This document shows positions 1 to 45,354 of a stretch of 64,000 nucleotides of DNA, piece by piece (positions within the stretch are counted from its first letter, which is position 1; every line of letters starts with the position of its first letter). The notes below the pieces were generated by a model that saw nothing but the letters and a program-made list of their open reading frames with translations, was not told the DNA's origin and ran no database searches. A program made the translations under genes and the position numbers. The DNA is from Lingula anatina (taxonomy: Eukaryota; Animalia; Brachiopoda): positions 9,982,001 through 10,046,000 of the forward strand of contig CM120641.1 of NCBI GenBank assembly GCA_051362555.1, given 5' to 3'.

Positions 1-199
1 TTGCCAATCCCACTCGCTCTATATATGTAATAAACCCTCATATCTGTAAGTCGTGCCAATATATCCGCTTGAGAACATCCCATTTTCTTCATTTATATAT
101 AAACCTGCATATTAAATTGGTTTAATATATACGTGCTCAAAATCGTTGACATCGACAAATTGCACGCCTCCGGCCAACCATAAAGCAACTCAAAGACGC

Positions 200-1792
200 G
201 TACGTTCTTATCAGCTCTTTCGGATTGATGAGTTTTATGACTGCTCACCATAACGATTGTACAAGGTAAGAAGACAAACTAGTTATTCGAGTTGGACAAG
301 GTCATTCTTTCAATGTGTTCAGCTCTCGGTTGTAGAGGTAAGAATACCTATGCCAGGAGGTGGTCTCATTAATGTTCCTGTGTAATGACCGGGTAGGATG
401 GGGAAACCTATAAATACGTCACGACCATTGTTTGTTTGAAGCCCAAAACGTGAAAGTGTCGTAGTCATGTGGTATTACAAGGTTTGAGATGAACGCGTTT
501 TCCCCTTCAGCAAGGTAAGGTGTGTAGGTATTTTCTACAAAACGATTTACGTTTTGGGGTGTTCTCTTGTATAAATTCTTAACTTTTATCCATTTGAAAA
601 TACAAGTTATTTACTACACAAAGAATAAAAAGCACCGCTGCTGCTCATTGCGTTCCGTGGAGACACAAACCGTGTGAATTACCGCAGCGACTGATGCATA
701 TTCGCTTTCCCAAATATCCCAGAATTTGAACAGACTATTCCATTAGTACCCCCAGGTCCCGTTTAGTAGGTTGCACACTGCACTCTGTCGATATAAAAAG
801 CTTCTGTTTCCATTCCCATAAGGCATTCCATACATATGATTAATGCGATTAAGGTACAGCCAGCAATTTACAAATGGCGAGGTATAACGATTTTCTACAT
901 TTTGGGTCGAAGCGAGGATGGGGCAGATGTTCCCGTTGCAAATTATCTGTACATGTTAAGGGCGAGTAGATTTTGTCGACACTCTTTTTACCGAGAGTGT
1001 TATTGATCGTTGTTGTGAATGTAATTCATGGACGAGACCCATGTTAAAATGATCAGATGACGTATGGTTAAGCCCAAGCAGATGCCCCCTTGACAGAGTA
1101 TTATCTTGCACAGCTGCTAACCCGAGATAAATGCTTCCCTACAAATGGCGGCTTTATTGTTCATTAGTGTCCAGTCGGCGTAATTTATTCTATCTAATAA
1201 CGTATGTAAATGCGGGTTACCGAATTTGGCATAATGCATTCACACAAATGACACTTCTGGATTTTGTAATCAGATATTACGTGGAGACGTGGTTTGAAAG
1301 AAAGGGAAGACGCTTTGGTCTGTTGAAGATGGGTCGGGATGAAACGGTAGCCTAATCGACGAAGCATATCCAGACACTGAGATATTGCGTTTGTGGTTTA
1401 ATCAAAAGATTTCTTTCTACATGTCAACTACTCTTTATCGCTTTATCTTTTCAGGTTTTGGAACGCGGTGCGGTCGCAGCCCCTACCGATTCCTCAAGCG
1501 ACACACTAGGACGACAGCGTCTTTCTTCGTGTTAGTGTTGCTTCACAAGGCACAGCAGTGGCTTATTGAGAGAGAAAGAAGCAAGGAATCCATGTTAAGC
1601 ACAACTTATATACGTGTGGCTACCCATCTTTGTATGGAGTACCCTTATCATTCTTCGTCCACCATAATTTGCATGTCAAACTGCTGACGTGTGTCAGAAC
1701 TGTGTGTGTGGAGCGCAAACGTGGCGGTGAATGTAATATGTACATAGTATGTGGGACGAGTTGAATGGTTAGGTATATATGCATGTGCTGTG

Positions 1793-1827
<35 letters not shown>

Positions 1828-1850
1828 AGGGAGAGAGAGAGGGGTGCACG

Positions 1851-1884
<34 letters not shown>

Positions 1885-4671
1885 GACGCAATGGATAGAA
1901 TTTATGTTTATGAAATTTGGGTAGATTGAGTGTCGTTTCTTTATTATTCGCAAGTTGCCAGTTACAAATGTATGTAGTACGACAAATAGTTTAAGTAGTT
2001 AGTACGGTAGACCATTAACAATGTCGCATTATTTGGCACCTTCGGTTTTTTTCTCACAGTGGAGATGAGGTACAAACGCGCGATTGATGCAGAAACGACG
2101 TTTGTATAAAGCGTCCGTTACGTTTATATATTTCAACAAACAAACTAGCTCTTTCAAGAGAAGACACGATAAGAGAAGCCATTTGACAAATTAGCTGCTG
2201 CCACGGCAACTCTCAGCTCTTCAGGTCTGTAGTAGTAGGCTTGTGGTATGACAAGATCACTTCAATAACGCTCCCGGTTCCCTGACTGAAACCCATCAAG
2301 TGAAGAGGAGTCATGCCAAGTTAACGTCTTTATGTGATTGTTTCCAGTGATATGAAATGACGTGACATCTCTTTTTCTCTTGTCACTAATGAGATGTTGA
2401 TGGAACATTTTTTTTCAGACAGAAGTGAGGACCGGTGGTGAAGAGGCTGGACTGCGGGGTCATTACCTAGACGCTTCCGGCGCATTTCCCCTTTGTCAAG
2501 ATGACAAGTTATAATTATTTGTCATGCTCATGTCGTCTTTATTTTTTTCTGATCTTTAGATTTCATAATATGAAGTGCAGGTCGCGTGTTAAGGACGTCG
2601 GGGGGGGGGGGGGGTAATTTATTCAACATTCAACATTGAAGATTGGTTTGCTACAGGTTGGTTTGCAGTCATTGGGTCTATTCGATGTTATTTTTTCTTA
2701 CTTTGAGAACGTGATGACATGGCGTCGACCACCGCAAAATTTGATTTTTTTATGAGGACGAGGCAACGAAGGGTGTTGTGGAATAATATTAAGTTTCAAG
2801 GTGCAAAAATCTGTCACTCTTATATAGGTTGCCACCTTTTTGATGTTGGACTTCATTACTAATCGTGTTTTGGTTTTTAACAATCACGTTCGTTTGAAAG
2901 ACAGTGCAATTGACAAAACGGTTTTGTAGTATATACAAATATGACTGGCCCTCAAGTATGATGAAGCAAAAACTTTTGGTCACTATTTGTTTGGAGGGGA
3001 GAACAACATTAAATTTCAACCCCGCACCAACAGTCTCGCTGTTTGTTTTTTGCTGTCTTCACGCGCGGTGCCTCTCGTCTCCAAGCAGTGTAAGGACCCA
3101 GTATACAGGGCGGCGTGTTTCTCGCCCGGCCTTGAGTCGTGTGCTTGGCACTATGTCAGTTAACTGACAGTTTAGATACCATCCGACTGCCTAACGAGCC
3201 GAGAAGAACATTCAATCAACCTTGCTCGGCAGTCACTGTCATAAGCGAGGCTTTCAAACATTGCATATATATCTTCTGAGTCACCGGCAAAAGTGTAGTT
3301 TGGCGGGAGAGTGGGGTGGTTCTGTATTATTAACTACTGGCTTGTTGGTAGCTGAAATGAGCAGTGATGCGTATGACATTGTCCTGTATATCTTGTTCTC
3401 TCTGTAGAAAGTGGGTGCACAGTGAATTTGTTGATTGATCATTGGGTCTTGATTTGGAAATGGACGAAAATGAACGTGAAATATCTTGGAAGCAATTGGC
3501 CAGTAATCTTTGTTGAGATTGGATGTTTTGTCCTAGCTTGTCCATTTGGAGGGACCGCGTCTGCACTGCCTTTGGATGGACTCCAATCATGTCACGTTTC
3601 AAGAAACTGATGGACCCTTAAGACTGTCCCTAACGGTAAGAAAAGCCTCCCCTTGCGACTTTGGGGCCTTTAATTTTTCTTCCATTCATCTATAAGTTTC
3701 AGACAGATTCTCAATAAGTTTACAGGGTAGCCCGTCCACAAGGACTTCAAAACCAACACATATCTTGATGAAGGCAAATGAATCACTTCCCTAGGAGAAC
3801 ATTAACAGCGGCAAAAATGGCCATAGATGATGGATCACTAAAGCTCGGAAAATGGCGTCCCAAGTGACCCTTTTTTTTCAACATTTTCCGTTGTGGCAGC
3901 TTTTGGTGAAATTGCCCCTTTTGTAAGGGAATAGCTGTGAAATATACTGGTGTTTTGGAAAGTGTTTTGCTAGTAGCTGGGTGGTAGTATGTGTGCGTGG
4001 GAGGGAGGGTCGGAAATGGTCATCATTGTCATTGCTATGCATGTGAATGCAGCAAGTCGTATTTTACTATCTTTATACATTTATCAGCAAAATGCATTAA
4101 GTGACGATAACAGAAAAAAAAACTGTCGTCGCTCAAATGTTTTGGTGCACGAATTTTGTTTTTCATTACGGTTAAGTGCTTTTCAGAAGAGACAACGGTT
4201 GCATATCAATCGCGTTCGACAATATAGTTAATGATATTTGAAAGTCATTACAAAAGAAAATAAAGCTGGCGTCGTGTATCAGTAATGACTATTGTTTGTG
4301 GATGGGAAAACACATTATGTGATAGAAAAAGAAAACTGTACCCTTCTTTACTAAATACCATTTGTTACATGATAAACCTATCTGTTGACTTGCCAGTAAC
4401 AAGATATTCACGCAGGTCCTAATTTATGCAATCATGTTATCGGCGCTGCGTTGATAAAACAAATTGGTAACACGTTTAATGGCGCGTGGAAAATGAGTCG
4501 AAGCGATTGGTGTGGAGATTGTCAATGTTTGCGTGTGTTAGATGCAAAGTATTGGTAAATGTGAAAGTGTTCCAGTAATGATTTGCATAATAAGTGGCAT
4601 CCATTGCGCCTGCCTTGCTCTGCACGCACGCGGCTCCATGTGAACGTTACGTCATGTCATAGTGTTAGAGA
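200..4671 (+). ncRNA. putative structured non-coding primary/host transcript region upstream of mir-184
   Basis: No credible ORF. Visibly richer in GC and CpG than the rest of the window, with many local stems whose G-U pairs favour the + strand, the same strand as mir-184. Transcript boundaries cannot be determined. Confidence 0.45.
1795..1883. repeat. compound (TG)n/(AG)n microsatellite
   Basis: Direct reading. Confidence 0.95.
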
Positions 4672-4755
4672 GTTGCCACGTTTCCTTATCACTTCTTCTC
4701 GCCCGGTCTGTACTTGAGGAACTGGACGGAGAACTGATAAGGGCTTGTGGCTAAC
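4672..4755 (+). ncRNA. mir-184: microRNA mir-184 precursor hairpin (mature 3p arm 4723-4744, star arm from 4684)
   Basis: 4723-4744 reads TGGACGGAGAACTGATAAGGGC, the conserved mature miR-184. The 5' arm CCTTATCACTTCTTCTCGCCCGGT pairs with it, and the basal stem is GCCACG/TGTGGC. There is UGU at the loop start and a CNNC motif (CGTC, 4761) ~17 nt after the 3' end. Confidence 0.97.
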
Positions 4756-5368
4756 AAATACGTCGTGCACTATGCGTAAGTTGGTTTCATGAAACAAAAT
4801 TTATATTACTATTTCTACCCGCGCGAGTAACGATTCAAGAACAAGAGCTGTGTTGCGAAAATTAATAAGTATTTTATTGAAGATGACACAAATTGCAGCA
4901 TAAGAAATTTGTGATGTGGGTTTCAGAAAACCAAACGTCGAAAAGGTTATAATGGCAAAAGTGAAATGATAAATGTTTTACAATAATTTTCATTGACAAT
5001 TTTAACCATTGGAAATCAAAACAAGAAGATACATCTTCATAAATACTACGATGTGATCACGTTTTGTGGTGGTTGTTTGGACCAAAACGTCCTCCAGACA
5101 AATATTTGCAATGAATGGTTTTATTTGTAATATCCTGCATTGTTGAATCGAGCGGATGTTACCTGATTAACAGCCATGTCTAAAATACGCTCGAGTTTGC
5201 GATCAATTTAGTCTCTAAAACAATATGGGTTGAATATTGGTAAATTTTTTTACTTATTAAATAACAAGAAAACCCACTTCCAACAAACATTTGCATACTT
5301 CATAACATCGCCAAAGCGCCGGGTTAGTGTGGCCATATTTTTACATGGTTTATGACATTAAAAAAGTA

Positions 5369-5954
5369 TTAAAGCCCCAGAATTTTGACATTTTATTCAT
5401 ATATTTTTAAAGTCTAGAACTGCAGACAGAAGTACAATTGCAGTTGTAGTTATTTGTTGGCATATTTTTCATTTCAAAACTATAGTCTTCAAATTGTTGA
5501 AGATAAAATTTTTCACTGACGCGCAAGCGAGCTTATTTGTAAAATATGTAAATGCATCTCCACCGTCTAATAGAAGATGCAATTAGTAAGAAATATATCA
5601 AGTTTTCAAGTGTTATAGTTTACAAGCATCGAGCGATATTGCACAAGAAGAAAACATTTTACTGGAAGTAACTTATTTCATTTTTATTCTTACTTTTTCA
5701 GATTGACTGTTTTGTGATTGGAATTTCTATGAAATTTTGGCTGTCACATGAGACAGCTTATTTTAAAATTTTTACTTGATAACCGCAAATTTTGTGTTGG
5801 AGCCCTACTTTTTCATTTGTCGCAACAACGGTCATTTCTGTTGTGGCCAGTGAGCTGCCCAAGCCCCATTTTCTAGTTTAACCAATGGTTCAATGAATTT
5901 TGTAAAAATTTGAATTTGAAACAAAACTATAAATCTCGATGTATCGGGCTTCAT
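5369..5954. mobile_element. possible decayed TTAA-type (Kolobok-like) non-autonomous element
   Basis: TTAAAGCCC at 5369 and its imperfect reverse complement GGGCTTCA near 5946-5953; no other support. Confidence 0.25.
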
Positions 5955-6560
5955 GTCAATAAAAAATAGACATTTTTTAATAATTGTCAACAGTTGTTCA
6001 TGCTGTATATGCTAGTTAGGCCTACTTAATTAAAATCACGTGTAAAAATGTAATATATTTTGCAATATATTTCAAGAAATAAGAAAATAAATAATGTATA
6101 TATATAAAATCAAAAATAATATAATAAGACAGTAAAAAGAAAAGAAAAAAAGAATAGAATAAATTATAGACTATAAAAGTCTCGTAAGCTTTGAATCTCA
6201 CGTTAGCAACCGTTACTTTTATCGGAACGAATAAATAAATAGATATAAAAATTAGAGATTAAGTTATATGTAATTTGGATTCACAAACGAGGAGAGGTGA
6301 CAAAGATTTACAATGTTATTTTAAATGAGTAAATTGACAGGCCCTTGAATAATAAAACAATGTTAAGTTGAACTTAAGAGGTTCGAAATCGACTAGAAAA
6401 ATTAGTCTCATTGTTTACCGAGGCAATTTTTATGACTGGAATAACCCTTTTTTTAATCTAGGTTTGCCGTTTTATTTTGAACACAGAGCAAAGCTTAGAT
6501 ATAGAAATTCTTGCTTCGTCTGTGCCTCTTGCGGTAGTAATACTTTCACCCCCCCCCCCC

Positions 6561-6609
<49 letters not shown>

Positions 6610-7197
6610 AAACTTATTTGTATACTTTCATCGTTGATTGGCAGCCCTTTGTTTCTTTCGCAGTGATATCTTGGATGTCATAATGACGCCGCGGAAACAG
6701 CAATTTATTAATCAAAATTATTCTTGATCGGCAAGTGTCTGGATTTCAATCTTCTCAAAGTGTAAATTATTACCTGTAAATTAGTAGGTTAATGATGGAA
6801 TGTTCTAGCATGACAGAAAATGCGCAAACAAATATCCATACACCTCTTCAACTGGCAGCGTGTGTATTTTGCAAATGGCAAATCCAATCTTTCTTAACTT
6901 AAAGCATGCTAGACCGTTAAAAAAGCATGCTCGCTTTCAAGTAGTTGCACATCAAATGCATTTTTACACTCTCCTTTTCTGTGTAGTGCATACATAAAGA
7001 CGAAAAACGAAAACGGGTCAAAAGTCCACAAGAAAATAATGTCAAACTAGAGCTTGAAATAGTAGAGCTTTATTTCAGTGGGACTTCGTTCCTTTCACGG
7101 CTTTTTGTGACTAGACGTGTCAACTTGCTTTTAATGATGCTCATAGACGCGCGAAACTAGGTTAAAATAAAATGCAGAATACTCGCTATGCTCAAGT

Positions 7198-7228
<31 letters not shown>

Positions 7229-9335
7229 CATGGCCGGATCAAGTCGTTAATTTGCCTGTGTCACTGCATTGGTGCACGTTGTCTTTACGTTCTCAATTAT
7301 TCCAACAGTAAGTGGTCTCATGACTCTTGGGATTCTAAAATTTGGATTTGTTTCCTTGCTCAAGATTTCTCTTCAATCAATATTCTAAATGAAATTACCC
7401 CTATAATGAGCAATATATGAATCAGTTTGTAAAATAGACGCAGTTACAAGCGTAAAATGCCCTTGTTTAAAACGATCTATATGTTGTATGTACCTCATCC
7501 TTTTTTTCCCATTTACGCCCTTTCGCAACTTTCACAACTTCAGGGTATGGTTTAAGTCAATCGAGTATCCTTTACCTTTATGGGAGACTAAGCGTGAACG
7601 CATATTTCTAAGTTTTTACAATTAAAATAATTTAGATGTTTTTTAACGTGGCATGTTAAGGTATGTAGTCAACGTAACGCTAACCAGGTCAAAACTCACT
7701 TAATTAAATAAATCGCCGACTTCCCGAATCGAATATGGAGAAAAATGACAATACCAAAGGCAATTTTTTAATTTGGTTTCGTGCCTGATCAAAAGTGCTT
7801 TAGCTTATTAAGCAAATTTCCGAAAAACCATAAACTGCTAAATGCCAGTAATCAATTTGACCAATGATGGAACTTTGGAAAGCGGACGATACCCAACGCC
7901 CTCATAAATTATTTTACTTCAAATCGTGGCATTTATTTAGATGGGGCCCTTGTAATAATACGTCGCAACGTAATGCATCCGTAGTTATGCCAGATCCAAG
8001 AAAAATAACCGCTTTTCAGACAGAAACAAAAGAAAAATAGTCGTTGTTAGCAGTGAAAATGCAGTTTTATATACTTCATCAAACGTGTTTCTGTAACCCT
8101 TACTCAACCGAGACAAATGAGAAGGCAACCAGACTGAGTTTGCAAATAACAAAACCCCGATTGTGTGTAGTGCCAAGCACAACTTGCCACCGCCTGAACT
8201 GAATTCATTTCTTATAAAATATTGCAGGCGAATATTATAATGCTCTGATTTTGGAAAGTTAGATACTTGCCATCTTGCACACGTTCAAATAAAATGAAAA
8301 ATATTAAAAAAAGAACAAAGTGGTTTTTGAAGGTAGTATTAGTACTGGTTAGCAAGAAAGCACTCTAAACTGGTTCTGAACATTATTGATTGAAATTCAG
8401 TGTTCCTACAAATTAAGCCGAAAGAAAGTTACATGTACCGGGAAATTGGTCTTCATTACATTTTAAAATCTCGAATGATAATTTATAACACTTGATAATC
8501 TACTCCGTTCATTCTTCATATAACGCACTCAAATCACGTGTTCAAAGAAGTAGATTTACCAAGCAAAAATTTGAACAAATTATCTTCGGCTGGCTACTAT
8601 CAAAAACATTCTCAAAGACAAATATCACCTTTTGACAACAATTAAATGACAATTCACCAATAACTATACAATAATGACGACAAGCTGGAGCTTACTTCGT
8701 GATTGATGAAATCCTTACCATTTAACAACACCTACAAACTTTTATTCTTTTCCGGAAACTTTATTCAAAATGTATCATCGCATAAAATTAACCAGGTGGG
8801 CTTTCAGCAAACTTTGTGTAACAATATAAATAAACTCCCTCATTTCAATGTTACAATATGCAACAAAATACGGAAACCCACAAAGATTTGGCATGACAAT
8901 TATGTATTTAAACCGTCTTCTCATAAGTAGTATTTACAAATGGTACTGATCAAATCCACATTTAATGATTATTACAACTAGCAAAAGAAGTAAGACTAAG
9001 GCATTGGCATAACCTACCAAAGTAACTACTTCATTTTAAATGAAGTGTTCCATCGTATCATTTAACGGTTCCTTTCTTGGAATTATCCTTAATTTTGGTT
9101 ATTATTCAAACATTCGTGCAGTCATGTCTTTCTTATAAAACACTAATTTTTCCAAATCAATTCTCATTGTTTCTCAAGTATGCTTCACCACATTTTAACA
9201 TTCTTTAATTTCCTTGACATGATATTGCCAAATTTCACAAAACATACACGTTTCCAGATATGCACTTAATAGAACAGCTTTCTACGAAACCATGGTTTCA
9301 GCCACTCTAGTCCGATCCAAACCAAGGAGTAGCAG

Positions 9336-12300
9336 CTACTTCTTCTTGCCAGTAAGTCCAGCTCCGGCGTTGAATTTGAAGTGAATGATGTCCCCATCTA
9401 GCACAACGTAATCTCGGCCCTTCTGGAGGTACTTTCCTGCAGCCTGAAAATACACTTGTTTTTACGATTTCTTCATATGAAAAAAAAAAAAAAAAAAAAA
9501 AAAAAATCAGGCGGAAAATGATGCATTTTGATAACTTCCTAATCCACAAAACAGGTTGCTTAAAAATTAGACAGGCAGTACAGCAAAAGAGAAAAATGAT
9601 AAAGTTCTCGTTGTGTGAGTTTTTTAAAATGTTTATTTTTTTATTGTTATCATTATTAATTTATTTACTTTTTTCATCTTTTCTTTTGCATCTCCTTTGT
9701 GAATTGATTCAGATAGCCTACCCATGAGAAAATTTAAATCGTAACAGCTTTAGCCCTTTAAGTCACTATAATACAGTGACAAGAAAAGCCAAGCTAATAT
9801 CTCTGGTCTAGACAGAAACCCGTCCTAATTCTATTAATTTCCTATTTCAAATTATTTCTAGCTTTATTGTTGTAATGAAGCAGGGGCCTGTAACATGCCT
9901 TGCTGTATTTTTGAAAAAGACATAAAATGTGCCAATAATGCCAATAAATTGCCAATAGACAATTTTTTTCCAATTTTTCATTTCCTTAACCCAATTACTT
10001 ACATTAAATAGTGTATCCAGACATTTTTTCTGTACACTAAATCCACTTCATCAGTACACTTTAAACCTTTTAATATCCTTTGTTTGACAAATATTTCACA
10101 ATAATTTTTGTTGTCAATAATGAAAAAAGGGTTATATTATATTCCTCTCCTTAATACATGAATAATATGGTAAAATTGTCTAATAATTTCCTTTGCTGTA
10201 TGTTCAAAGCACTATTTTTTACTTTTTTTGATAAATAGCATGCCATTTGTAGCTTGACAAGCAATTTGCAGTGGAGCAGTTAGTAAATGTGTTTGGTCTT
10301 GTAATACTTTCTCCTTTCAAACTATTTAGCCTCAGCACAATAGTTTTCAATTTTTAAAGAAATTTTTTTTTTTTTGAAACAACTGCAAAATATACAATAC
10401 TTCACTCATTATTTGGGTAGATACAGTAAACATGTTTATTGGATGAAAGGAAATTATCTCACAACTGAAACCTCCAAAGCATCCATTCACATAAAAACTT
10501 AATTTTGATATTTATTTAATCATGCCATGCCTTCAGAGAAATATATGCATCCACAATTAGAAAATTCCACTTAAAGAGTTCAGAGGAGGCCAAATTTCAA
10601 AGAATTTTCTTTCCTGTTTTTATTTTTTGCCAAACCATGTCCTGACTACATGAGATTTTCCTTTGAGGTTGGCCCGTTTTAGAAGATGAGGTGTCAAGCA
10701 GGCACACCTGCTGTCGGAGTTACGTGATGTGACACCACTCGTTCATGCCAGGAAAAACAAACGACAGACATTGTGCCTTCCTTACTGTGCAAATTAAACA
10801 ATTTCACATACATTGTAAAGCTAGCAAAAATGTTGAATTTTCAATTTAGTTACTCAAGGTGAAATACACCAGAACTTCAGTTACAGAAATGTATTATTTT
10901 TTTCTTTGATTATTCATCTAAAAACTGAAATAATTCATTATACTGTAACTAACAGAATAAATAGCAACAGACAGAACAAGACTAAAAGTACGGGGATATT
11001 TTGGGAACCTTTTGACATTAATCAAGTAACTTATTGTAACAGTATCACATAATTAAGCACACTAAACCTCAAATTCAAGTACCTCATCAGAGATAAATCC
11101 ATCAGCATATTTAGTGAATCTCATACAAGTATATCATTACTGTTAAAATACATGAAGTTAACTTATCAAGAATATATAACAAGGATGTCCCTAAATAGTA
11201 AAAGAATAGTGCCCTGGCACGCAGCTTATTTTATATCTTGGGTTTACCCTTTCTTCAAGTCTGTGTTAAACAATATGCAATGTATTTCGTAAAATCATCA
11301 ACTAGATTCAGAGCAAGCTGAACCCTACCTTGACTGCATTTTCACTGCCCAATTCCTTGAAATCATCAAATTTCATCACCTCAGCCATGATGAAGCCTTT
11401 TTCAAAGTCAGTGTGAATTTTTCCAGCCGCCTGAGGTGCCTTGGTGCCTTTCTGAAAGCATGAAAATTTCTTAAGATAAGTTTGTGTATTTAATACATCA
11501 TCTCATCACAAATGGAATTTTCGAATATCAATTCATCAATTCAGCATTCTTGACATTTCAGTAACCAGTGATTTCATGTCAATCAAATTGGGAATACACA
11601 ATAAACATTAAAAATTTTTAAGTAATAAGGATGTTAAAATTTAAATAATAATAATAATAATAAAGGTAAAATCAAACAATCATCAAAAAGAGTAACATTT
11701 TTACACAACTAATTCAACAAAAACAGTTTTAAATGAAAAAAAAAAAATTTGCATTACATAATGTGTGCATGCGTGTGTGTGTGTGTGTGTGAGCACACCT
11801 GCGTACACGTCTGCATTAAAAATTTTGCTAGAAAATGAGCTGAGGACTTTACTCAGTCTTCAACTTTTAGAGCTTATAATATTATTTTAATTTTTTTCCA
11901 TTTTATTTTCACACTAAATACAAAAAGAAAATTAAAATAAGAAAAAACATGCCACTGGAATTTCCCAGCAGTTGGAACTGTGCATGTCCAGTAATCATTA
12001 ACTTTAGATTTTTGAAGTGTTAGACAAATATCTGTCACCACAAGACAAGTGTTAACTATGCTATTGCATGCAAGGACCATAAAACTTCTCTTCATATTGA
12101 CAGTGCCTGAAACGCATCTCTTACATAAATTTTAAGTTTTTATTACATGGTGTTTATCACTATTATATAATAACTTGCATGTAACTGACTAAATCTGTGC
12201 ATTAATATTTGTCGTAAATCTGTGCATTAATTATGTTCGTATCCCTCGTTGATAAATGTAGTTTTCACCAAATGGTACCAATGCCCTTGCAAGAGAATTC

Positions 12301-25600: not shown

Positions 25601-28600
25601 TTGTTATGAAAAGATTCTGCAGACAAAAATTTACCCTTTGTTAAGTTTTGTGATATAACATAATATTCTGCTGTTCAGCAAATGTCACAGATATAATCAA
25701 CGTAAAAAAATTTATAAGAGAATCTCAGTTTTAAACTATAAATTGTTTCTTATAAATATTCAGCAACATTATTTTTACCTTTTCTATTAGTTTAGCAGCA
25801 GCTTGGAGCTTCTTCAAGAAAAACATCTGCCACATCAAACTGCAAATTCCTAGAAATGATTGCCAAGACAATACATGTCATTCCACATTTCTGTCTCTAT
25901 GAAACAAAAGCCCAACCCTTAATACTACACATCAGAAAAAAATGCTTTTTATCTTGTTGCTTAAAGTATAATGGCCAAATGCACACAAACCCATGGTTTA
26001 AACATCAATTTTCTTTCCCAATTGACAAAACAACCTTTAAAATAACTTACCATGCTGCAACACTCCATTTTGAACAAGTTTTAAAAAGTCCAGGGAATGC
26101 CTTAATTTGGACACAACCTTCAAATAGAAGAGTAGCAATTCACAGTCTCTTAAAAGAGCTAATGTGATTTTTTTCAAGCAACAAAACTTATTTCTCTAGA
26201 GTGTAATGAAAATCAACAAAATTATCATACTCTGTGGCCAATGAAATGAAATGAATTACTCAGTTCCTGGTAATTATGTGCAAAAACATTTGTACAGTAT
26301 CTATTACTGAGGGGTGTTATTTGCAATGAGATTTATCTGACTAGCAAAATTCCCACCTCCGGGTCTTTGTTCCACCTTACTCCATACTCCCAGGCACAGT
26401 TAGCATACAACACATCCTGCTCCAGGCTGTGGGGAAACCTGATATGTAATGAATGTAAGAGATCTGGAAATGAATGACAGAAGTGAAAATATTACTGACA
26501 AATATCGGCTACTCGCAAAGCACAGGCTAAAAGTATTACAGAAAACTGAGTGCCTGGTTCTTTCATTCTTACTATACTATCTGGTAATGTTCAAAGTTTT
26601 CCACTTCAATGTTCTTTATAAAAAAGATGGTTTAAGTTTTAGTTTTGAGCCAAGTATATGTAAATTGAATTAAATTGTAAATTGAATTTTATTTAAAGAA
26701 ATCTGTGCCCACTTCAAAGCTGTATCATACATGCACTAAATCCATGCAAAAACTTTTTTTCACCTATATTTATAAATTTCTATTTCAGCTATTTAATTCA
26801 TTGTAAAGATAATTGATACAAAATAGATAAGACAACTTTTTGTCCCCAATTCCAGACACCCATCTTACCCGTCATATCTTTAATATCAGTTTCTAGATGG
26901 CTGCTGGTTTCAGGAGACTTGGGGCATGTTATGGAAGAATCACTACCATCACTCGATGTTCTGATGACATATGGTAGGAAAGGTTTGGTTCCTATGTCCC
27001 TTGCAGAAGCCCATTTGGCAATGATTTCTGCTATAATTCCTTAAAATTTAGAAACTATGATAGTCAGTCAAAGAGATAAAAGAAAAGTCTTGCAAATTAC
27101 TCCTCTGACTGTATGAAGATATTTTATACATGTAAATTATGGGATATCTGGTCTCCAATATAAGATTTGTTCTCGAAAATCCTGGCATAAATACACGATT
27201 TTACTTATTGGAAGAGGCTCTTTTCTTTTAAATAACAAATGGGTAGTTTCCTTTAAAACATCAACTAACTTTTCAACATAGCCATATTAACTCACCTCTG
27301 CCTCCCTCTAGCACCTTGTTCACAGACACCTCTATATCAGCTGACTTGGTCACATGACTTGTGTCGTCTGCTTCCTTCCACCTAAGCAAGCACTCCAGAA
27401 GAAGTAGATCTTCCAGCTGCTGGACAAGAATGTTCCATTTCTCATTTTCTAATGTAACTGCCTCCCATTCGGACATGTCAGTGTCTTCAGCTGCAGCTTT
27501 TTCATCCTGAGAAATGTTATTTTTGAATCTAACTTAAAGTTGCATATACAGCTTGATAAGTTTACCTAACAAGGGTAAACTTTCTCAAAGATTTTCTTTT
27601 CAAATTAATTGCTTGGAAAATTTTCTTACTGTTCTAGTAATATCTAATTTATTGACAAATGTTGTTGATTAAAAGTAAAGCTCTAAAATACACGTAAGAT
27701 TTCAAATACATCTCAATATTCTAATATCTAAGAAGAACACAAACCTTGTTTTTTCTGTATAAATACATAACACTCAAACTGACACTTCTACAAGTTTGCG
27801 CCAACATAAGTGAAGGACCAATATGGCTGGATGAACTGCATGCCGCACGGATCTTCTCCCACCAGGGGGCAGTGCGATTAGTCTCTGCTACCACCTCTTC
27901 CAGGTCTGAAAAGAATTGAAATTTAAATAAACTGGCATCATATGCAAAAGGAAAGTCATATTTAATGCTTTTTTCTTTATACAATGAAGTTAAAAATCTT
28001 GAAAATTTTGAAAATCTAATATTTATTTATTTATTTTAATCTTTGCCTCTCTCTCTACCTTTTCTCTCTGTGAATGCTTTTACCAAGCCATAGAGCCTCT
28101 CCATACAAGCTGTGGGCTGGAAGGTTTCTGACAACCAGTGGTTCCATAATAGTGACTGATGAGAAAAAAGGGGTTACAAGGTAGTATGCTGGGATTTATT
28201 CAGACTCTTAAATGACATACTGTTATAAAAAGATAATTGTTGATCAATGAGTGGCAACTACAGATGTTTGCTCAGTTTGTCATTACACAAATTAGAAAAT
28301 TCTAAGAAACATAACCTATTGGTATACTTGATACATAACAGAATATGGACATACTTTAGATTTGATTAAAAAAATCAAATTCTTTAGCTTACCATTACTT
28401 GTTCTGGTAAAATTTTGGACATCAATTTAATATCCATAACATCTTCAACTTCACAGTTTCCATTAAGACAGGTCTTAAACAAAAAGGAACCTAAAGAAAA
28501 AATACGGTACTATTCCTAATGTAATTTCCTGGAAATAGTTAATCTTGCTCACAGATCATATCCAAGTAAAATTTCAAAATCTCAAGCTAATGGATTTTCA

Positions 28601-31600
28601 ATGAAATGTATCTATTACATATTTCATATCTTGAGAACATTGAAAAGTATAAAGAGAGTGTAGACCTCCACCAAGGCAGCTCAATTCTCATTACTATTAA
28701 TTTATTAATGAATCAATACCAACATACAATAACTGATTTAAGACCTATCATGAAAAATTAATCAAAATCCGTCATTAACTTTTTGATCCAGGCTGTTAAA
28801 TGACAAACTAGCAAAGGCAAAAACAACCCCCTTGACAGAGGTAATATGTGAAACGCATATTCAACGGGGAATGCAATTACATTATCGTTAATTCACTTTC
28901 TTTATCTAAAGTGTGATGAAATATATCATACATACATACCCAACTTTTGTAACATCTCTGAATTCAAATCATGCCTTATATTGAGAGAGTAGGTCATGTC
29001 AGCCAGTTGGTCTTCTTTAGTTCTGTGAATGTGGCAAGTGAAGCAATTTAGGAACTGTGTCACTGTCAATTCGGAATCAGCAGCAAATTTCACCTTATGC
29101 TCTCTGTTATCTGCCACAAGCTGCTTGTGTTTGTTAAGTAGGTCCAGCACTTCTTCTACCTCTGACTGAGTTAGGGAAAGCAAGGCCTGGAGCGACTAGA
29201 ATGAAGGCAGGAAAATAAATAAGTGAATCAAAAGAGGATACAAGACAAAAAATGTTTATACTGAGAGAATAATGTAGGGAAGATCTCAGAGAAAAAATAA
29301 GACACTGTTCCTGATGTCCGAATTAGCAGACATACTTTTCGTTGCTTATACATCAGTTCCTTTCATAACACTATTGAATTAAAACTTTATATTACCTTTA
29401 CTTCAATATTTATCTTCAAGTATCACATGTGTAAATTAAGCTATTTATTATTAACGTAGAATGTTGGGTCTATTCCTTTTAAGTATTTTCCCAAAAAAAT
29501 TCAGCAACTGTTCAAACCATTTTACATACATTGTTAACAATTAGTAAGCAATTTTTTCACCTGTTGGGAATCCCTTTCTTTCTCAGTGCTTTCCTTTTCT
29601 GTCACTGTCTCCTCTTGTTTGCCAGCATTCAAACTATCCAGCATGCTATATGCATTCAGCAGTTCACTATATCCTTTACAAAACTGAAGCAGCATCTTAC
29701 TGTCAACATCTATTGTAACTGCATCTGAAAAAACAAGGAAAATTCATATAGCAATTAATAATATTTACTTATACATCTTTCAATAACAACCACTGGACTA
29801 AGGCTATGACAAAATTAAATTTTAAAACTTGTATTCTAATAGTATTGCATAAAAACCCTGCATCTCAATGAACTTTTTGTGAGCATATACTTTCCACAGA
29901 TTCATATTATCAGTAACTGATGGTCTGTAGTGTTCCACATGCCTTGTTGTTCTATCTGCTCTACAATGGCTGAGACCACACTGACCAAAACTTTCAATGG
30001 AATGTGTCTGGTGGTCAGAATCTTCTCCAAGCCCTGGGGACGGACATAATATGAGGTTTTGAGAATTAACAAATTTGTTCATCACTAAAGTTGTTTAGTA
30101 TCCTTGTAATTCATCAACCACATTTTACTGTTTAAAATCAACACTGATCTGCACAAGGAAGATGTACTGAAAAAAGTTATTATATGTGCTTTATGTATGT
30201 ATGACAGACATGCTATCTTATCACATATTTCAACAGAAAATGTGTAAGTTTTAAAGAAAAGAAAAGAGAAGAAAAGTAGTCAGTTAATCAATTATTACCT
30301 GTTGCCTTATGCTGGCTATCTTTATGTCATAAAGGAGACTTATAAGCTCTGTTTCTGTGGCTGAAATGTAATGATAATAATCAAGGTTAACTTCACCTAC
30401 GCATAATAAAGGCAATGCCATAGGAACCATATTATATAACAGAATATGAAATATAGCAGTAACAGCAACACAAATGTCTTTTTTTAAATTATTTACATTG
30501 ATAATTATGTGGCAAGGTTTTCTATATGTATCAGCTGGAAGATATTTAATAATGAAATGCATTCAATTATGAATGTTATGTCTTCAGTGCTGATGTGACT
30601 GTGAGTAATGTCTCTAACTTTCACACCTGTGCCATTCTGAACTTGTCTCAGTGCAGCCTTCAACTTTTTTAGCAAATGGACATCTCTTGCCCTTTTGCTA
30701 TTTTTGTCACTAAAAGAAAAAAAACAAACATTAAAAATAGAACATATTTCAGTGAAGATCTCATCGTCAATGTCAAAGGCCATATGTTAAAAAATCTTCC
30801 ATGACACTGTAGGCTTTAAATCTTACTACATGGAAAAAATGTTAACGTACAAAGCAAAGAAAGCACAAGGTATATATACATTATATACATATGCACGTTT
30901 GACACACTGATACAAAATTATTACTTCCATGAACCAAATCTCTGCATATTTGCCACCAGATAACTTGATGACTTAAATAGCACACTCACAGATCTTGAAT
31001 AATGCATGCATGTCTACACACAGATGCATTATCAGCAGTGTAACCCTTACACACAACATAGCTTACCTCAATGCAAGGTGGAATGGGACATCAACTGTGC
31101 TTAAGTTTCCATGTGGATCAAGCAGGTAGCACATAAAATGGTTCTGTTTGACACCCCTGATAGTAACATTGTTCAACCCAAGCATGCCATGTGACTGGTA
31201 TAAGAGCTGACACCATTTGCTGACACTAAAGGCAGCCACTCTAGGGCCTTGTTCTGCTGTCCATACCTAGAAACAATCATGCGTTTATTTAAAAACCATA
31301 AGGAAATCTTTCAAAAGGCGGGAAACTCCCATGGCATTCCTAACCTTGCTATAAAGTGTATTATTGTATCTGCAACTGTTAACTTTATGTACTAAAACAA
31401 TTGTAGACAAACTGTAGACCAGATACTTTCATTTCATGATGTTTTTCTTTGATCAGGCAAACAACAAAAGAAGGCAACCCTTCCCCAACCCAAATAAGAT
31501 TGTCTGTGTAAGTCACAAGAAGTTGCTTCACACTCTCCTGTATATATGCTGCATCTCCATCTGTTCCCCTTCATAAAAACACCATTTACCTCCAAGAGGC

Positions 31601-32593
31601 CCCTCCTGGGTGCATATATCACCAGGAATAACGCCAGTCTGGAGCTCTGCTCATGTGGATCCTCTTTCACCTGGACCCAGCCTACCTGAGCATCACGATA
31701 ACCTGAAATATGACAGACATTCACAACCTTTAAAGAACATGTACCTATTATTTCTCTCCAAAGATCTAAATCTGACCAAATCTGACTCTATTCTGATTTC
31801 ATTCAACATACCCCAGGCCAGTTAATAAAGTCGTAATGAGTTAATAATTTCTCATCACTTTTTGTTCACTTTATCCATTCTATATACCCAATTGCAGAAA
31901 GTGGCACACTATGACTGTCATTAGGTATTGCTATATTTGGGAAAACCGACCCTTCTGTTACCTAGAGCTGTTATTTCTTACATTCTAAATAAAAAAAAAA
32001 TTAATAAATTTTAAAAAACTGACCTTTCCACATCCTGACAGCTCTTCCCTTCAAGATATCAACTAACAAAACTCTTCCATAACTGTCTGTGACAGCAGCC
32101 AGGTTGTTGTTTGGAGAGAGTACAATGCTCTCTCCCTGTCTGTGCTTGTCTGGCAGACCACTCCTACAAACATCAGGATATTGTTGTAAAGATGTTATAA
32201 TAAGTCATCAATACAAAACTCTTTCAGTAATCTTACAAATACAAATTTCTGTGACAGCATAGAGGTATCACTGAAAATTTCCTAAAAATTAAACATAAAA
32301 TATATAAATGTATAGTATATATTATCTTCTTTTATTTAAGAAAATGGAATATGTTAGGCTAAAATCCATGTCGCATTAATATTCAGTTTTTTCGTTGAGT
32401 CAAATGGAATTCCAACCATATAAATCCATATGTATATAAATATATATCAAAAATTAAACATTAAATACATAAATGTATAGTACATATTATTCTCTTTTAT
32501 TTAAGAAAATGGAATATGTTAGGCTAAAATCCATGTCGCATTAATATTCAGTTTTTTCATTGAGTCAAATAGAATTCCAACCATATAGGTCCA

Positions 32594-32637
<44 letters not shown>

Positions 32638-35600
32638 AAATTTATAGATAACAGCTTTTGATAAATAAATTTCAATTCAACAGTGCCTTATAAACAAGGG
32701 CGTGGCTGGTTCTACTTTTGGCTTGTGTCTTTCTTTGTTTTCTTCAGTGTTATGCTTGATACCAAACCAACCACTGGAAAAAATAAAAATTGTTATTATT
32801 GTAACCCATAAAATGTTACTTTCAGGTAAATGAAAAGAAAGGAGTTTTACTCTGCTATGTCAAGGCAGTCTTTATGAGAAATACACAATATATGTAGCAG
32901 AATAATGGAACCAAATCCCATTGTCTTTTCAATACATATTATTTCTAAACACTTGTCATGTAATCGATTCAAACCAATGTCTATTAAGCAAACTATTTTG
33001 CCTGTTGATTTTCAAAAAAATTTCATGTTATCGATAAACAAGCACAATCACAGCTAACAAACTGTACTAAAAGAGACTTACTTTGGTACCTGAAATTAGC
33101 TTTACCAAAATCCCAAATGATTCCCTTACCATACATCATATAGTATAGCAAAAGCAATCTGGTGGTAATCCAAAATTATTTTCCCTTGTCTAATTTAGAT
33201 CTGTTGCGATGAGGCCTGAAAGTTACACCTTACCTTGCAGCACTAAGGAAGGCAGACTTGAGTTTATGTGCTACTGCATATGCCACATCTGATAAAAGTG
33301 GCTGAGCTGAGCCCTAAAAAATTGACAAATCACTATTGGGTAACACAATTCCTGCAACAATTTGAGAACAGCAAATAAAACACATCCATTATAAGAAAAA
33401 CAGCTGAACAAGAACTTCATATTGGACTTTGCTTTAGGTCTTATTTCCTCTCAGTGTGTAGTATTCTTCTGCCCAGGACTCTGCTTCATTAGTTTAATAA
33501 AGACAGAACTACCAATAAATGCAAGTCCAACATAGCAGACTTTACAGTTTACAAATTTACAGAAAGACATATTTACCTCCATAGCATGAAAGAAGCCCAC
33601 AAAGGGCCCAGATCCTGTGGTGGTGTATATGGCAGCTGCAGGGGGAGTGGGTTTGATGGTGGCACTATACCCACCCCACAGAGAGGCTGTCTCCAACTGG
33701 TCAAAGGCACAGGGGGTCACAACACCTAAAACAAGGAGTCTTACTTGGACATACTGTTGAAATGCTGTATTCTAAAGTGTAACGTCAATGCAGATGTACC
33801 CACTTAATTTGAAATCTAAAGATTGATTATACAATCAAACAAGATAATGAATTCTTATGAAGGTAAGATTTTCTATTCATCTGAGAAAAATTGTCATTAA
33901 AGAAAATTGACATACCAAACTCCAAGCCCTTTTGCCTACACCCCCCCCCCCCCCCCCCACACACACACACAACAGCAAATATTGAGCATGAAATATATCT
34001 TTTCAAAATATAACATTTAACTTCATTTTAATGTACTAACCACAGCTCACATGTCCTGTGACAGCATCCTGCTCTTGCAGGCCCCACTTCTTGTAAGCCA
34101 GAGGAGGAGGAGTGATGGTGTCACTACCACTGGCTGCAGCTGATATTTAGAATGAGTTAAATTATGAGAAATATTTGGGAAAAAAAGAAAAATACTTATT
34201 AAAATTCACTTCAATAAATTGGAGCAACTCATTTGAGTTCCACTGGTTAAAATATGCCTAGCTGTAGAAATTTAACAATGTTCTTAATATGAGTAACCCA
34301 TTAATACATAGGTGAATATGGAAAATCCTTATCTGTCATCTAAGGAAAGGGCCACCAAATAAAAATAATACCATAGAACTCTAAAATATCTCATATCTTA
34401 AAACACACCAAACATTTGATACCTCTAGCAACTTGGTTCCTGCATGCTCTCAAAGTCTGGAACAGACTGAAGCCATCTATTGTCACCAGAGACTTAGGAT
34501 ACAGAATGGTCAATTCTTCATGCTATAAAAGAGATCATTGTAGTTCTCCTTAATAGTGGTGTTCGAGAAGTATAAAGGTTAAAGAAAAAGCATTAGCAGT
34601 TTTAAAGTAAGTTGATACATAAAATCTAATCATACATAGAAATTAATTTGATAGAGTAGAAGGATAGGAAGGGTTTGCAAATCAATAGTTTTTTTTTTTT
34701 TTTTTTTGCTTAAGGTGCTAATATATTCTAAAACTGTTCTAAATATAAGTGTTTACATTATTTGTACCTGTTCTGATGCTGCAGCATGTCTTGGTGGTTC
34801 ATATGTTTTACATTTAAATTCCTGCACCATCTTTTCATGAAGCAGTTGTGACAACAAAAGCACTCCAGTCTACAAAAAAGAGAACAATTGCATTACTCAT
34901 TTAGGAACTTTTGTTATCACAGAATATTCTTCCACTCAAAGAAATCACAAAATGACTTCACATAAATAAATCAGTTAAAATATTCAAGAATTTAAGCAGC
35001 ACCCATAAAATCTTTAATATTCACATTTAGTATATATATAGCTACTATATGAAACAATGTCTTGAAAATAAAACTTGCAAATAAACTCCCAAGCTATAAC
35101 ATATATATTTTATTAAATCACATCATCTTTAAAATGCATAGAGAAAGGTATAATTAGATAGCTTTTTTTTAAAAGATATTTTGTTTAGAAATTTCATCAA
35201 TCTTTTAAACAAATCTTACTCAAAACAACATTGGTTGTTATTTGTGAGTGGTGTTGGGTTTGGTGTCCACTGTGTTTCATACCTCAGTATAAAACCTCAC
35301 ATAACCAGAGGTAAAGCCCACTATTACACATGTCCAGTCAGGTCCACCCTGGGTTGATCTGAATAAAGTATATAGCCAAATATCAGTGAAATTCTAACGT
35401 CATTCCTAGCAATTTTCAGACCATATCACACCACAGAAGAATCATAACTACCGACTATAGCAGTGAAATGAGTATGTTTTATCTCAGTAATGTATAACTG
35501 TTCAAAAGAACTGTAAGTGCTGGATAATCTTTTACCTGATAATTTTTGGTATAAAGACAAAGATAATACATGTATAGAATAACCATTATTCTAATATTTC

Positions 35601-42426: not shown

Positions 42427-42930
42427 AGAGACTGGGTCTCAGTTTTATCACTAAGAACTGGTTTTGATTAAATGTATTTGTTAAGTGTAATTGTGTCATA
42501 TGAATTCTATAACTATGAACATTTTAAAATAAATGGAATATGTTTATATCCTACCAAATATCCCAAGAAGGTTCTATTCTCAGTTTCTTCGCTATTTAAT
42601 ATGCGATGAAAAAAAAACTACCAAACGTAATTTTTGCTTGAGATGCTTTGTTGAAAATGGTAACGTCATTTTTTGGCCTTGAGTGGTGGAAGATAGATAT
42701 TTATTTATTTAGCACTACCAAAAAAAAAATATATATTGGAAAGAGAACGTAATGGCTCTTGCTGTAAGCGGTTAAGTAAGATTGAGTGTGCTCGACGTCG
42801 GAAACGAAGGCGTCCATGACGCTTACAACTTTGACGTCGTATGTTTATGACGTATTGGACACGGCACCGTGACATCGCTATGGGGCCTTTTTTGTAATAA
42901 AAACCAACAGATAAGAAAAAAACATCAAAA

Positions 42931-45320
42931 ATGCAAGACGAAGAAAACTCCTTTGAGTTGCGCACGTATGAACGCATTTCCGAGTATGTGCCAGTTGGTA
43001 AGTCAATTTTCCTAAAACTTTAAAACTTTTCTGTTTGTGTTCCGTCAAAGGGACCGCCTTCCACGTTGTCAACGTTAGTGGGGTAATATAATGCAAACCC
43101 AAATATATATAACCAATGTTTAGTTCCTTGAATAACCCATTCAATCTATTTATTTTTTTTATTTGTTCATTTATCTATGAATCTAATGTAAAAATCATTG
43201 TATCAAAAATTTCTGCTGTTATCGATCGTATAGAAATCTCAAGATGACAATTTAAATGTTTCAGAGGATACTGTAATTCAGAGGAACTTTGAGGAAGATT
43301 GGAAGAACAGCTGTCAAATATACGATGCTTTGAGAAAAGACTCGAAACTATGCGATGCAGTACTCGTTGTTGATCAGCGAGAATTCCCAGTCCACAGAGT
43401 CATCATGGCTGCCTGCAGTCCATATTTCAAAAGATTATTCACTAACCAAATGAACCCATCTTTTGATGGTGATTTTCCGATAGAATACCACATCTGTGAC
43501 AAAATAAGTGCTGGAGTTATGGAAATTATCATCAATAATGCCTACAACAGGAAGATTGATATTAACCCTGAAAATATTGAGTTATTACTATCAGTTGCCG
43601 ACCAGTTCCACATATTTGGTTTATTAAAAGCATGTGTCAATTATTTGGAAGAAAATTTGTCCGTGGAAAATTGCATTGGAATATGGATGCTAGCAAAACA
43701 CCATAACTGCCCCAACCTAGAAAGCACAGTCTTTCGATTTTTGTTAAGACATTTTACACCCGTGTCATTCTATAGCCAAGAATTCGTCCAGTGTTCCGTA
43801 GATGATTTGGTTGGTTTACTAAGTGCCGAGAACTTAAATGTGGCAAATGAAGAAATTGCGTTTGAGGCTGTCATCCGCTGGATTTCACAAGATCCAATTA
43901 ATCGCAGAAAGTCCCTCCCCGTTCTGCTCCCAAATATCCGTCTTGGATTGCTCAGCAGTGACTTTTTCTGTACACAAGTCGTGAATGACGAGTACGTCAA
44001 AGCAGAGCCCCAGTGTGCCGCAATTTTAAATGAAGCACAAAAACTCATCGATGCACTGGACAGTGAGAAATATTCTGATGTAGATTTTACCCACCCCCTC
44101 ACCTGCCCACGAGTCCCAGTTGACGTGTTGTTTGCTATCGGAGGGTGGAACACAAACAGCCCTACAAATCTGATTGAGACCTACGACACACGAGCAGATC
44201 GGTGGATCGAAGTCCTAGCACAGAGCCAAGGTCTTGGTACGTAGTTGGTATACCTAACAGTGAGAGCATTCCTGAGTAAGTCGGTTAGTACTAATCAATA
44301 ACATCATAATCCACAGGTCCCTACACATAATTAATTTTCTCTTTTCGTTTGTCATTTAACTATTTAATTCATCTATTAAGGTCCGACAGCCTATCACGGC
44401 TGTGTAACTTTGGGAGGAAAAATCTTCATCATCGGCGGATTTGATGGAGTCGAATATTACAGTCAGGTGCGGTATTACGACCCAGCAAACAAAAAGTGGT
44501 CAAAGGCCGCTCCTATGCACCACAAAAGGTAGATTGCTATTTATTTTAGATGTGTAGTAAGAAAAACTACGATATTTTCACAATTACGTTTTTATTCCAA
44601 CAGGAAACCAGTCATTTGCTTATCAAAGTGTATACGTAATCATTTGACCAAGTGACGTTATCTGTCGGATGACGTGCAAATATTTTAGTGTGACCCCAAT
44701 GTTTTAGATCGTCTTGGTAATAATGATAAAAGACTAAATTTTACTCATTAACGTAAAAATTACCTTTCAACTTGACCCTATGTTTTTCTTTACGTGGACC
44801 TCTAAGAATCAATTGACCTATTTTAATCCCCTTAAATTCGTACAAGCGATAACTCTTTTTAAGAACACGTAGGACCTACGATGAATAACTTAACAAAGGA
44901 GTTTTTTATTTAATCACAAAAAGAGTAAATTTTCTGTATGAAATCTTCATCATTTTGATTTTAATTTTATACTTTTAAATTCAAGTATATGAAGAACGTA
45001 TGCAATTTTAATTTATAATCATTTTAATTGATTCTCATGTCTTATTCTAATATTCTAATGATGTAAGACTGCAATCTTCAGGTTGCAATTTAAAATTTTT
45101 ATATAAACCAATTATTATTATTATTATAAGGTGCTATGTCAATGTTACTATCCACGATGACAAAATCTACGCCATGGGAGGCTACAACGGGGACACACGT
45201 CTAAGTAGTGCCGAAAGATACACCCCCAGTACAAATCAGTGGACACCAATAGCGCACATGCACACCGCCAGAAGTGACGCAGGCGCTTGTGCATCAAAAG
45301 GTAAAAAAAAAATAAAATAA

Positions 45321-45354
<34 letters not shown>

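What the first reader, a model, noticed from the sequence alone, without database searches (positions are those of the whole stretch)
200..4671. ~4.5 kb dense array of G-U-rich hairpins leading into mir-184: candidate large structured ncRNA or hairpin cluster
Seen: local stem-loops follow almost back-to-back. Examples: 289-298/316-325 (10 bp), 538-544/550-556 inside a longer stem 521-572, 978-986/993-1001, 1314-1324/1328-1338 (11 bp, mostly G-U), 1496-1543, 2071-2078/2099-2106, 2199-2206/2241-2248, 2324-2363, 3540-3552/3569-3581 (13 bp, 4 G-U), 4100-4109/4124-4133, 4243-4251/4282-4290, 4437-4445/4449-4457, 4520-4534/4542-4557. The non-Watson-Crick positions are mostly G-U on the + strand and would be A-C mismatches on the - strand. 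That is the expected signature of folded + strand RNA rather than DNA inverted repeats, and it is the mir-184 strand. The hairpins are unrelated in sequence, so this is not a tandem repeat. Inference: a highly structured pri-mir-184/host lncRNA, or a polycistron of lineage-specific small-RNA hairpins. Most stems are shorter than the ~35 bp Drosha needs, so a structured lncRNA is favoured. Caveat: G/U-rich sequence folds readily by chance, and this was judged by eye.
Basis: partly seen in the sequence, partly recalled or inferred. Interest (0 to 1): 0.8.

Follow-up and report, generated by a model that had tools for sequence, protein, structure and literature searches.

The report
Ordinary mir-184 host transcript, unstructured
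This stretch of lamp-shell (Lingula) DNA is weakly copied into RNA and is likely just the long front end of the transcript that carries the microRNA mir-184; its many small hairpins are no more than shuffled sequence of the same make-up gives, so it is ordinary.

Summary
The window is Lingula anatina. mir-184 at 4672-4754 (+) is real, and the quoted stems can be drawn. They are at chance level: mean folding z over 200-4671 is +0.13 (120 nt) and -0.08 (70 nt), like the rest of the window. Stem counts, the best hairpin and pre-miRNA-like hairpins all match shuffles once the (TG)n microsatellite is removed. The G-U strand asymmetry is reproduced by shuffles; it comes from a G+T excess that the window's protein genes also show on their sense strand. 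Natural alleles break 9 of 11 predicted pairs. Splice-like signals lie on + only. Best reading: the unstructured 5' arm of a pri-mir-184 host lncRNA of the pri-miR-122 / Drosophila CR44206 kind. It is not a structured lncRNA and not a miRNA cluster. Interest is low.

The parts
200..4671 (+). Low-abundance non-coding transcribed region, inferred 5' arm of pri-mir-184; no excess structure
   Evidence: Stranded reads; folding nulls; no Pfam hit above cut-off in 43 ORFs; G+T 0.549, CpG o/e 0.9
4672..4754 (+). mir-184 precursor hairpin (mature 3p arm at 4723-4744)
   Evidence: Rfam RF00657, 72.2 bits; -33.5 kcal/mol, z -4.3; 32-pair unbranched stem
4761..4764 (+). CNNC motif 17 nt after the 3p arm (Microprocessor enhancer; motif recalled)
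1773..1884 (+). (TG)n/(GA)n microsatellite and its TA/TG-rich edge; source of the apparent excess of long G-U stems
4..103 (+). Candidate promoter: CCAAT at 4 and 56, TATA-like at 20 and 94 (inferred, untested; the start may lie left of the window)
   Evidence: no read ran over position 1, which is weak at this depth
265..3641 (+). Splice-like signals on + only: donors G|GTAAG after 265, 337, 514, 3635; acceptors ending at 510, 1454, 2059, 2418, 3407. Use is not shown
   Evidence: no joints listed
4259..4301 (+). AATAAA followed by a GU-rich tract, about 400 nt before the hairpin; candidate poly(A) site (untested)
   Evidence: sequence
2297..2383 (+). Best single upstream hairpin (32 pairs, 9-nt bulge, 4-nt loop, z -3.8); within the range that shuffled regions reach
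8128..11454 (-). 3' end of the convergent YchF/OLA1 gene; boundary of the locus and strand control
   Evidence: Pfam PF06071; reads

Best explanation
200-4671 is transcribed at low level on the + strand, folds no better than shuffled sequence, and is likely the non-coding 5' arm of the primary transcript of mir-184. Inferred mechanism: Pol II starts near or left of the window start and reads through to the hairpin at 4672-4754. Microprocessor then cuts the hairpin co-transcriptionally, which releases pre-mir-184, leaves the 5' arm as a short-lived by-product and probably ends transcription within 1-2 kb. The hairpins seen by eye come from a sense-strand G+T excess, likely transcription-associated, plus a (TG)n microsatellite. 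Any sequence constraint is more likely on cis-regulatory and processing signals than on RNA structure.
For: Shown: libraries are stranded, since reads on the - strand OLA1 gene have mate 1 on + (except one pair in X13). Reads over 1-5418 have mate 1 on -, apart from a trace of 0.05 in one bin of two runs. They amount to about 19, 19, 4-5 and 2 reads in X12, X13, X14, X16, estimated from depth, with 6% of each run read; none on this strand at 5806-8127. X13 has reads in the two bins around the hairpin. Structure is null in 7 analyses. Sense-strand G+T is 0.544 here without the microsatellite, and 0.526 and 0.536 in the window's - strand genes. GGTAAG occurs 4 times on + and 0 on - (shuffles 0.93; 34 of 2000 reach 4), the same sense bias as in the known genes (14 vs 3, 5 vs 0). 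No coding signal, no other Rfam family, no tRNA. Known precedents: mir-184 is embedded in CR44206 in Drosophila (PMC7286294, passages); pri-miR-122 is a ~4.8 kb lncRNA ended by Microprocessor cleavage (PMC11347158, passages).
Against: Depth is very low (mean 0.14-0.6, about 1-3% of the OLA1 3' UTR). All upstream reads come from one study (X12-X14). X15 and X16 gave none upstream and one pair each downstream; X18 gave none. No single molecule links the arm to the hairpin, the bin 3871-4257 is empty in all runs, and no start or end pile-up was listed. The upstream reads come from poly(A) libraries, which fits a non-polyadenylated 5' fragment only as carry-over. Folding z-scores cannot exclude a few short selected helices or tertiary structure.
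Confidence: 0.8

Rival explanations
1. A separate spliced and polyadenylated lncRNA (alternative first exons, poly(A) site near 4280) that ends before the hairpin or splices around it; mir-184 is made from read-through or from an intron.
For: Strand-specific donor and acceptor motifs, including a well-bounded 228-nt candidate exon 3408-3635; AATAAA at 4259 with a GU-rich tract after it; reads come from poly(A) libraries and thin out after about 3870.
Against: No joints listed (threshold 3 reads). Reads lie in the would-be introns (775-1161, 3138-3449) and not in 3450-3605 in X12. No 3' pile-up near 4280. The motif patterns were chosen partly after seeing the sites; the a priori MAG|GTRAG gives 2 vs 0.27, 45 of 2000.
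Confidence: 0.12
2. Highly structured lncRNA whose many G-U-rich helices are selected.
For: The stems can be drawn; the + strand is transcribed; allele density is lower than downstream (10 in 2072 vs 21 in 1796 bases, Fisher p=0.019, one other individual); three hairpins reach z -3.2 to -3.8 on their own.
Against: Total local folding energy is weaker than shuffles (span 60: -867 vs -923+/-16; span 100: -987 vs -1021+/-20). Pairs with p>0.8 number 217 vs 279+/-53. The best 70-nt z (-4.2) is typical of shuffled regions (minima -2.75 to -7.5 in 15 shuffles). 9 of 11 alleles break their best predicted pair, none is compensatory.
Confidence: 0.04
3. Polycistron of lineage-specific miRNA hairpins ahead of mir-184.
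For: Same strand and probably same transcript as a real miRNA; new miRNAs often arise in existing primary transcripts (recalled).
Against: 9 loosely pre-miRNA-like hairpins vs 9.5+/-2.5 in 97 shuffles, all at -25 kcal/mol or weaker against -35.5 for mir-184. No other Rfam miRNA here or in 20 of the 96 other mir-184 loci scanned.
Confidence: 0.02
4. Enhancer/promoter DNA of mir-184 with only incidental transcription; the real start site is close to the hairpin.
For: Raised GC (0.42 vs 0.33), CpG o/e 0.9, lower polymorphism, five same-strand ATGGCG motifs; strong cis-elements are reported at Anopheles mir-184 (PMC12032250, passages).
Against: Transcription is on one strand over about 5 kb, with matching compositional skew (G>C p=1e-6, T>A p=4e-4) and sense-only splice motifs.
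Confidence: 0.02

Closest known systems
Drosophila mir-184 host RNA CR44206
   Same: mir-184 lies within a longer annotated transcript (PMC7286294, passages).
   Different: No sequence comparison was made; the extent and splicing of the Lingula transcript are not mapped.
Human pri-miR-122 and other lnc-pri-miRNAs
   Same: A ~4.8 kb non-coding arm ahead of a single hairpin, inefficient splicing, transcription ended by Microprocessor cleavage (PMC11347158, passages). Size and read pattern here are similar.
   Different: Microprocessor-dependent termination is only inferred here; a candidate AATAAA lies upstream of the hairpin.
Transcription-associated compositional skew
   Same: Skew correlates with expression in Drosophila genes (PMC5786239, abstract only). 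The window's genes show a sense-strand G+T excess.
   Different: The mutational cause is not tested in Lingula; part of the skew may be selected processing signals.
Structured lncRNAs and miRNA polycistrons such as mir-17~92 (recalled as classes)
   Same: Long non-coding RNA with many drawable stems next to a miRNA.
   Different: No excess stability, no further miRNA-grade hairpin, alleles break pairs.

Membership tests
mir-184 precursor (RF00657), 4672-4754 | Covariance-model score above the family cut-off with intact mature arm | tested here: met
   72.2 vs 54.1 bits; the same 22-mer in 96 other loci
mir-184 precursor (RF00657), 4672-4754 | Unbranched ~33-bp stem more stable than shuffles, with processing motifs | tested here: met
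   32 pairs, CNNC at +17; z -4.3, 0 of 200 shuffles
mir-184 precursor (RF00657), 4672-4754 | Mature and star reads with 2-nt overhangs | not testable with these tools
   No small-RNA run was listed
miRNA host lncRNA (lnc-pri-miRNA) | Same-strand transcript upstream of the hairpin | tested here: met
   one study only
miRNA host lncRNA (lnc-pri-miRNA) | Non-coding | tested here: met
   Longest + frame 114 codons stop to stop; 0 of 43 ORFs above a Pfam cut-off; short peptides not excluded
miRNA host lncRNA (lnc-pri-miRNA) | One molecule joins the arm and the hairpin | tested here: inconclusive
   Short reads only; an empty bin at 3871-4257; reads in the bins around the hairpin in X13
miRNA host lncRNA (lnc-pri-miRNA) | Microprocessor-dependent cleavage and termination | not testable with these tools
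   Needs Drosha knock-down or nascent RNA ends
Structured lncRNA | Folding stability or defined pairing above composition-matched controls | tested here: not met
Structured lncRNA | Variants preserve pairs | tested here: not met
   9 of 11 break; mean pairing 0.77 at alleles vs 0.72 background; low power
Structured lncRNA | Significant covariation across species | not testable with these tools
   No alignable orthologue among 96 loci
miRNA polycistron | Two or more Drosha-grade hairpins in one transcript | tested here: not met

The most novel reading that the evidence does not exclude
The mir-184 host RNA of Lingula is gated by RNA processing: alternative short first exons (donors at 265, 337, 514, the last right behind an acceptor, like a 4-nt micro-exon or recursive splice site) and a poly(A) site about 400 nt before the hairpin decide whether Pol II reaches mir-184. 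That would be a tissue-specific attenuation switch for a pan-bilaterian miRNA, possibly with one or two selected hairpins such as 2297-2383.
Probability: 0.08. Interest if true: 0.45.

Novelty: new member of a known kind. Interest (0 to 1): 0.1.

Why it matters
As found it matters little: it roughly maps the primary transcript of a conserved miRNA in a brachiopod, which my searches did not find in print. It also shows a trap for reading by eye: G-U-rich stems on one strand report which strand is transcribed, through base composition, and do not report selected RNA structure. Had the structured-lncRNA reading held, a 4.5-kb folded RNA ahead of mir-184 would have been a notable new element.

Tried and rejected
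Whole-genome search: none held for this window. No RNA holder was listed among indexed runs, which is not evidence; X18 gave 0 reads and is no test. Rfam at E<=10 over 1-8500: only mir-184, its antisense and 4 sub-threshold matches. Dispersed or inverted repeats: nothing beyond simple repeats and short chance pairs. tRNA/tmRNA: 0. Coding: the 46-codon ATG frame ending at 3610 looks hydrophobic, but it has no Pfam hit and 2 of its 3 alleles change the residue, one Val to Asp, so I rejected it as a likely peptide. Degenerate mir-184 copy at 3119: an 11-nt match to the 5' arm, but z -0.37 and no 3' arm; rejected as chance. Cross-species: 96 mir-184 loci from metagenome contigs (taxa not determined) gave 6 BLAST hits outside the hairpin, E 0.06-0.71, one of them inside 200-4671. 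In 32 de-duplicated loci, upstream mean z was -0.28 sense and -0.18 antisense over 357 windows, against -5.0 for the hairpins, so no general structured leader. The 1272-nt fold of 3400-4671 has no shuffle control and was not used. Earlier findings of the scan: nothing. PMC12553114 and PMC12257675 (passages) say nothing on Lingula mir-184. MirGeneDB itself could not be consulted, and no supplements were read.

Full report
Setting. The kelch-like ORF at 47885-48898 is 100% identical, over 82% of the query, to a protein named kelch-like protein 10 of Lingula anatina, so the window is brachiopod DNA. Other genes: YchF/OLA1 on - ending near 9340, RAB3GAP2 on - around 27700-33800, two BTB-BACK-kelch ORFs on +, and BBS9/PTHB1 on -. 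CpG o/e is about 0.9-1.0 over 1-9000 and 0.24 over 9001-37000. That fits an unmethylated region beside methylated gene bodies (inference). Rfam finds one family in the window at gathering score, mir-184 at 4672-4754 (+), 72.2 bits. It has a 32-pair stem, CNNC at +17 and z -4.3.

Observation. The quoted stems exist: 10 of 11 arm pairs pair as written and one needs a bulge. The question is whether they exceed chance. In 120-nt windows against 30 dinucleotide shuffles each, mean z over 200-4671 is +0.13 on + and -0.08 on -, with z<-2 in 2 of 109 and 4 of 109. In 70-nt windows it is -0.08 (5 of 126 below -2), against -0.01 (9 of 197) in the rest of the window, p=0.71. Local folding of the whole region is weaker than block shuffles: -867 vs -923+/-16 at span 60 and -987 vs -1021+/-20 at span 100; the best hairpin is -28.0 vs -32.4+/-2.3. 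Pairs with probability above 0.8 number 217 vs 279+/-53 in 20 shuffles.

One test first looked positive: uninterrupted stems of 8 bp or more on + were 122 vs 89, with 0 of 100 shuffles reaching it. Listing them showed that most stems of 10 bp or more lie in the (TG)n microsatellite. With 1770-1895 left out, counts for 7 to 13 bp are 182, 77, 39, 11, 8, 4, 2 against 197, 82, 34, 14, 5.8, 2.4, 1.0, reached by 93-441 of 500 shuffles. Single hairpins look good when cut out by hand (2297-2383 z -3.8, 4085-4154 z -3.5, 3175-3244 z -3.2). But the same scan on 15 shuffled copies of the region gives minima of -2.75 to -7.5, against -4.2 observed. Loosely pre-miRNA-like hairpins number 9, against 9.5+/-2.5 in 97 shuffles.

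The G-U asymmetry. The + strand folds 2 kcal/mol per 70 nt better than the - strand, and shuffles do the same (-11.33 vs -9.32). The cause is composition. G+T is 0.544 without the microsatellite (G>C p=1e-6, T>A p=4e-4), and the window's - strand genes show 0.526 and 0.536 on their own sense strand. In tiles over those genes it is the - strand that has more stems, for example 130 vs 78 and 148 vs 65. So the asymmetry marks the transcribed strand, not selection on structure. The skew is not perfectly specific: 5800-8100, without reads, has 0.527 on -. Expression-linked skew is documented in Drosophila (PMC5786239, abstract). mir-184 itself folds equally on both strands.

Variation. One other individual's contigs differ at 10 sites in 2600-4671 and 21 sites in 4755-6550, none in the hairpin (Fisher p=0.019), so the region may be somewhat constrained. 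With one further allele from RNA reads, 9 of 11 break their best predicted pair. Alleles do not avoid paired sites (0.77 vs 0.72; these sums are approximate). Power is low. None of 96 mir-184 loci from other animals aligns outside the hairpin, 20 of them scanned hold no other Rfam family, and 32 show no strand-specific upstream structure. Covariation in close relatives is untested.

Transcription. Six RNA runs were laid in two calls, about 6% of each (25% of X18). OLA1 shows that the four libraries are stranded. Over 1-5418 the reads are from + strand RNA: about 19, 19, 4-5 and 2 reads in X12, X13, X14, X16, with mean depth 0.14-0.6 upstream in X12-X14 against 16-44 at the OLA1 3' UTR. There are none on that strand at 5806-8127, and one antisense pair at OLA1. 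X15 gave one pair at 6258-6550 and X18 none. All upstream reads are from one study. Bins with simple repeats are undercounted. No joints, starts or ends were listed for this region.

Signals. GGTAAG occurs after 265, 337, 514 and 3635 on + and never on - (0.93 expected; 34 of 2000 shuffles). Five acceptor-like sites lie on + and none on - (pattern chosen after inspection). CCAAT and TATA-like words lie at 4-103, with more TATA-like words at 409 and 792. AATAAA at 4259 is followed by a GU-rich tract. Reads fall inside the would-be introns, so the RNA seen is mostly unspliced or the exon guess is wrong. No ORF has a Pfam hit above cut-off (0 of 43).

How it most likely works. Shown: + strand RNA over the region, a canonical mir-184 hairpin at its 3' side, little signal beyond, no excess structure. 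Inferred: one Pol II transcript from near or left of the window start, co-transcriptional Microprocessor cleavage, decay of the 5' arm and termination soon after. This is how pri-miR-122 is described, a ~4.8-kb lncRNA ended by Microprocessor (PMC11347158, passages). In Drosophila mir-184 is embedded in CR44206 (PMC7286294, passages). Confidence 0.8. The main rival (0.12) is a spliced, polyadenylated RNA ending near 4280, with mir-184 made by read-through or from an intron.

Verdict. The dense hairpin array is not a real feature beyond composition. What lies there is a likely miRNA host lncRNA, a new member of a known kind. Searches found no paper on the Lingula pri-mir-184 (listings only; MirGeneDB and supplements not seen). 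Interest 0.1.

Noticed in passing
window:493-522: An acceptor-like tract ending at 510 is followed after 4 nt by a consensus donor (AAG|GTAAGG); resembles a 4-nt micro-exon or recursive splice site. No junction reads at this depth.
   Followed up: partly
window:874, 1145, 2719, 3852, 4479: 5 of the window's 11 ATGGCG motifs (YY1/Pho-type core, recalled) lie in this region, all on + (0.75 expected locally; not corrected for the number of words tested).
   Followed up: partly
window:3119-3129 and 4696-4706: An 11-nt word of the mir-184 5' arm recurs 1.6 kb upstream; no matching 3' arm or fold.
   Followed up: yes
window:3732-3738: A 7-nt site complementary to the miR-184 seed lies in its own upstream arm; the only one on + in the window, compatible with chance.
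   Followed up: partly
window:9001-37000, 53001-64000 vs 1-9000, 42000-52000: Sharp CpG o/e mosaic (about 0.2 over OLA1/RAB3GAP2/BBS9, about 0.9 over the mir-184 locus and the kelch pair), as expected for gene-body methylation.
   Followed up: no
window:43234-44244 and 47885-48898: Two tandem KLHL10-like BTB-BACK-kelch genes with long first coding exons.
   Followed up: partly
window:8888 and 11454-11456: Loose read ends: a shared ~20-nt insertion near 8888 in the OLA1 3' UTR relative to the window, and in X16 a second, diverged upstream-exon sequence at the 11454 junction, perhaps an allele, paralogue or second exon version.
   Followed up: no
window:19939-20034: Exact 47-nt tandem duplication around a (GA)n run; possible assembly artefact.
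   Followed up: no
L010, L021, L041, L066, L070, L075, L067, L082, L054, L047: mir-184 loci with no star arm within 50 nt of the mature arm and weak 90-nt folding where tested (z -0.9 to +0.4); may be elongated precursors, as PMC12553114 (one passage) lists for the mir-184 family.
   Followed up: no
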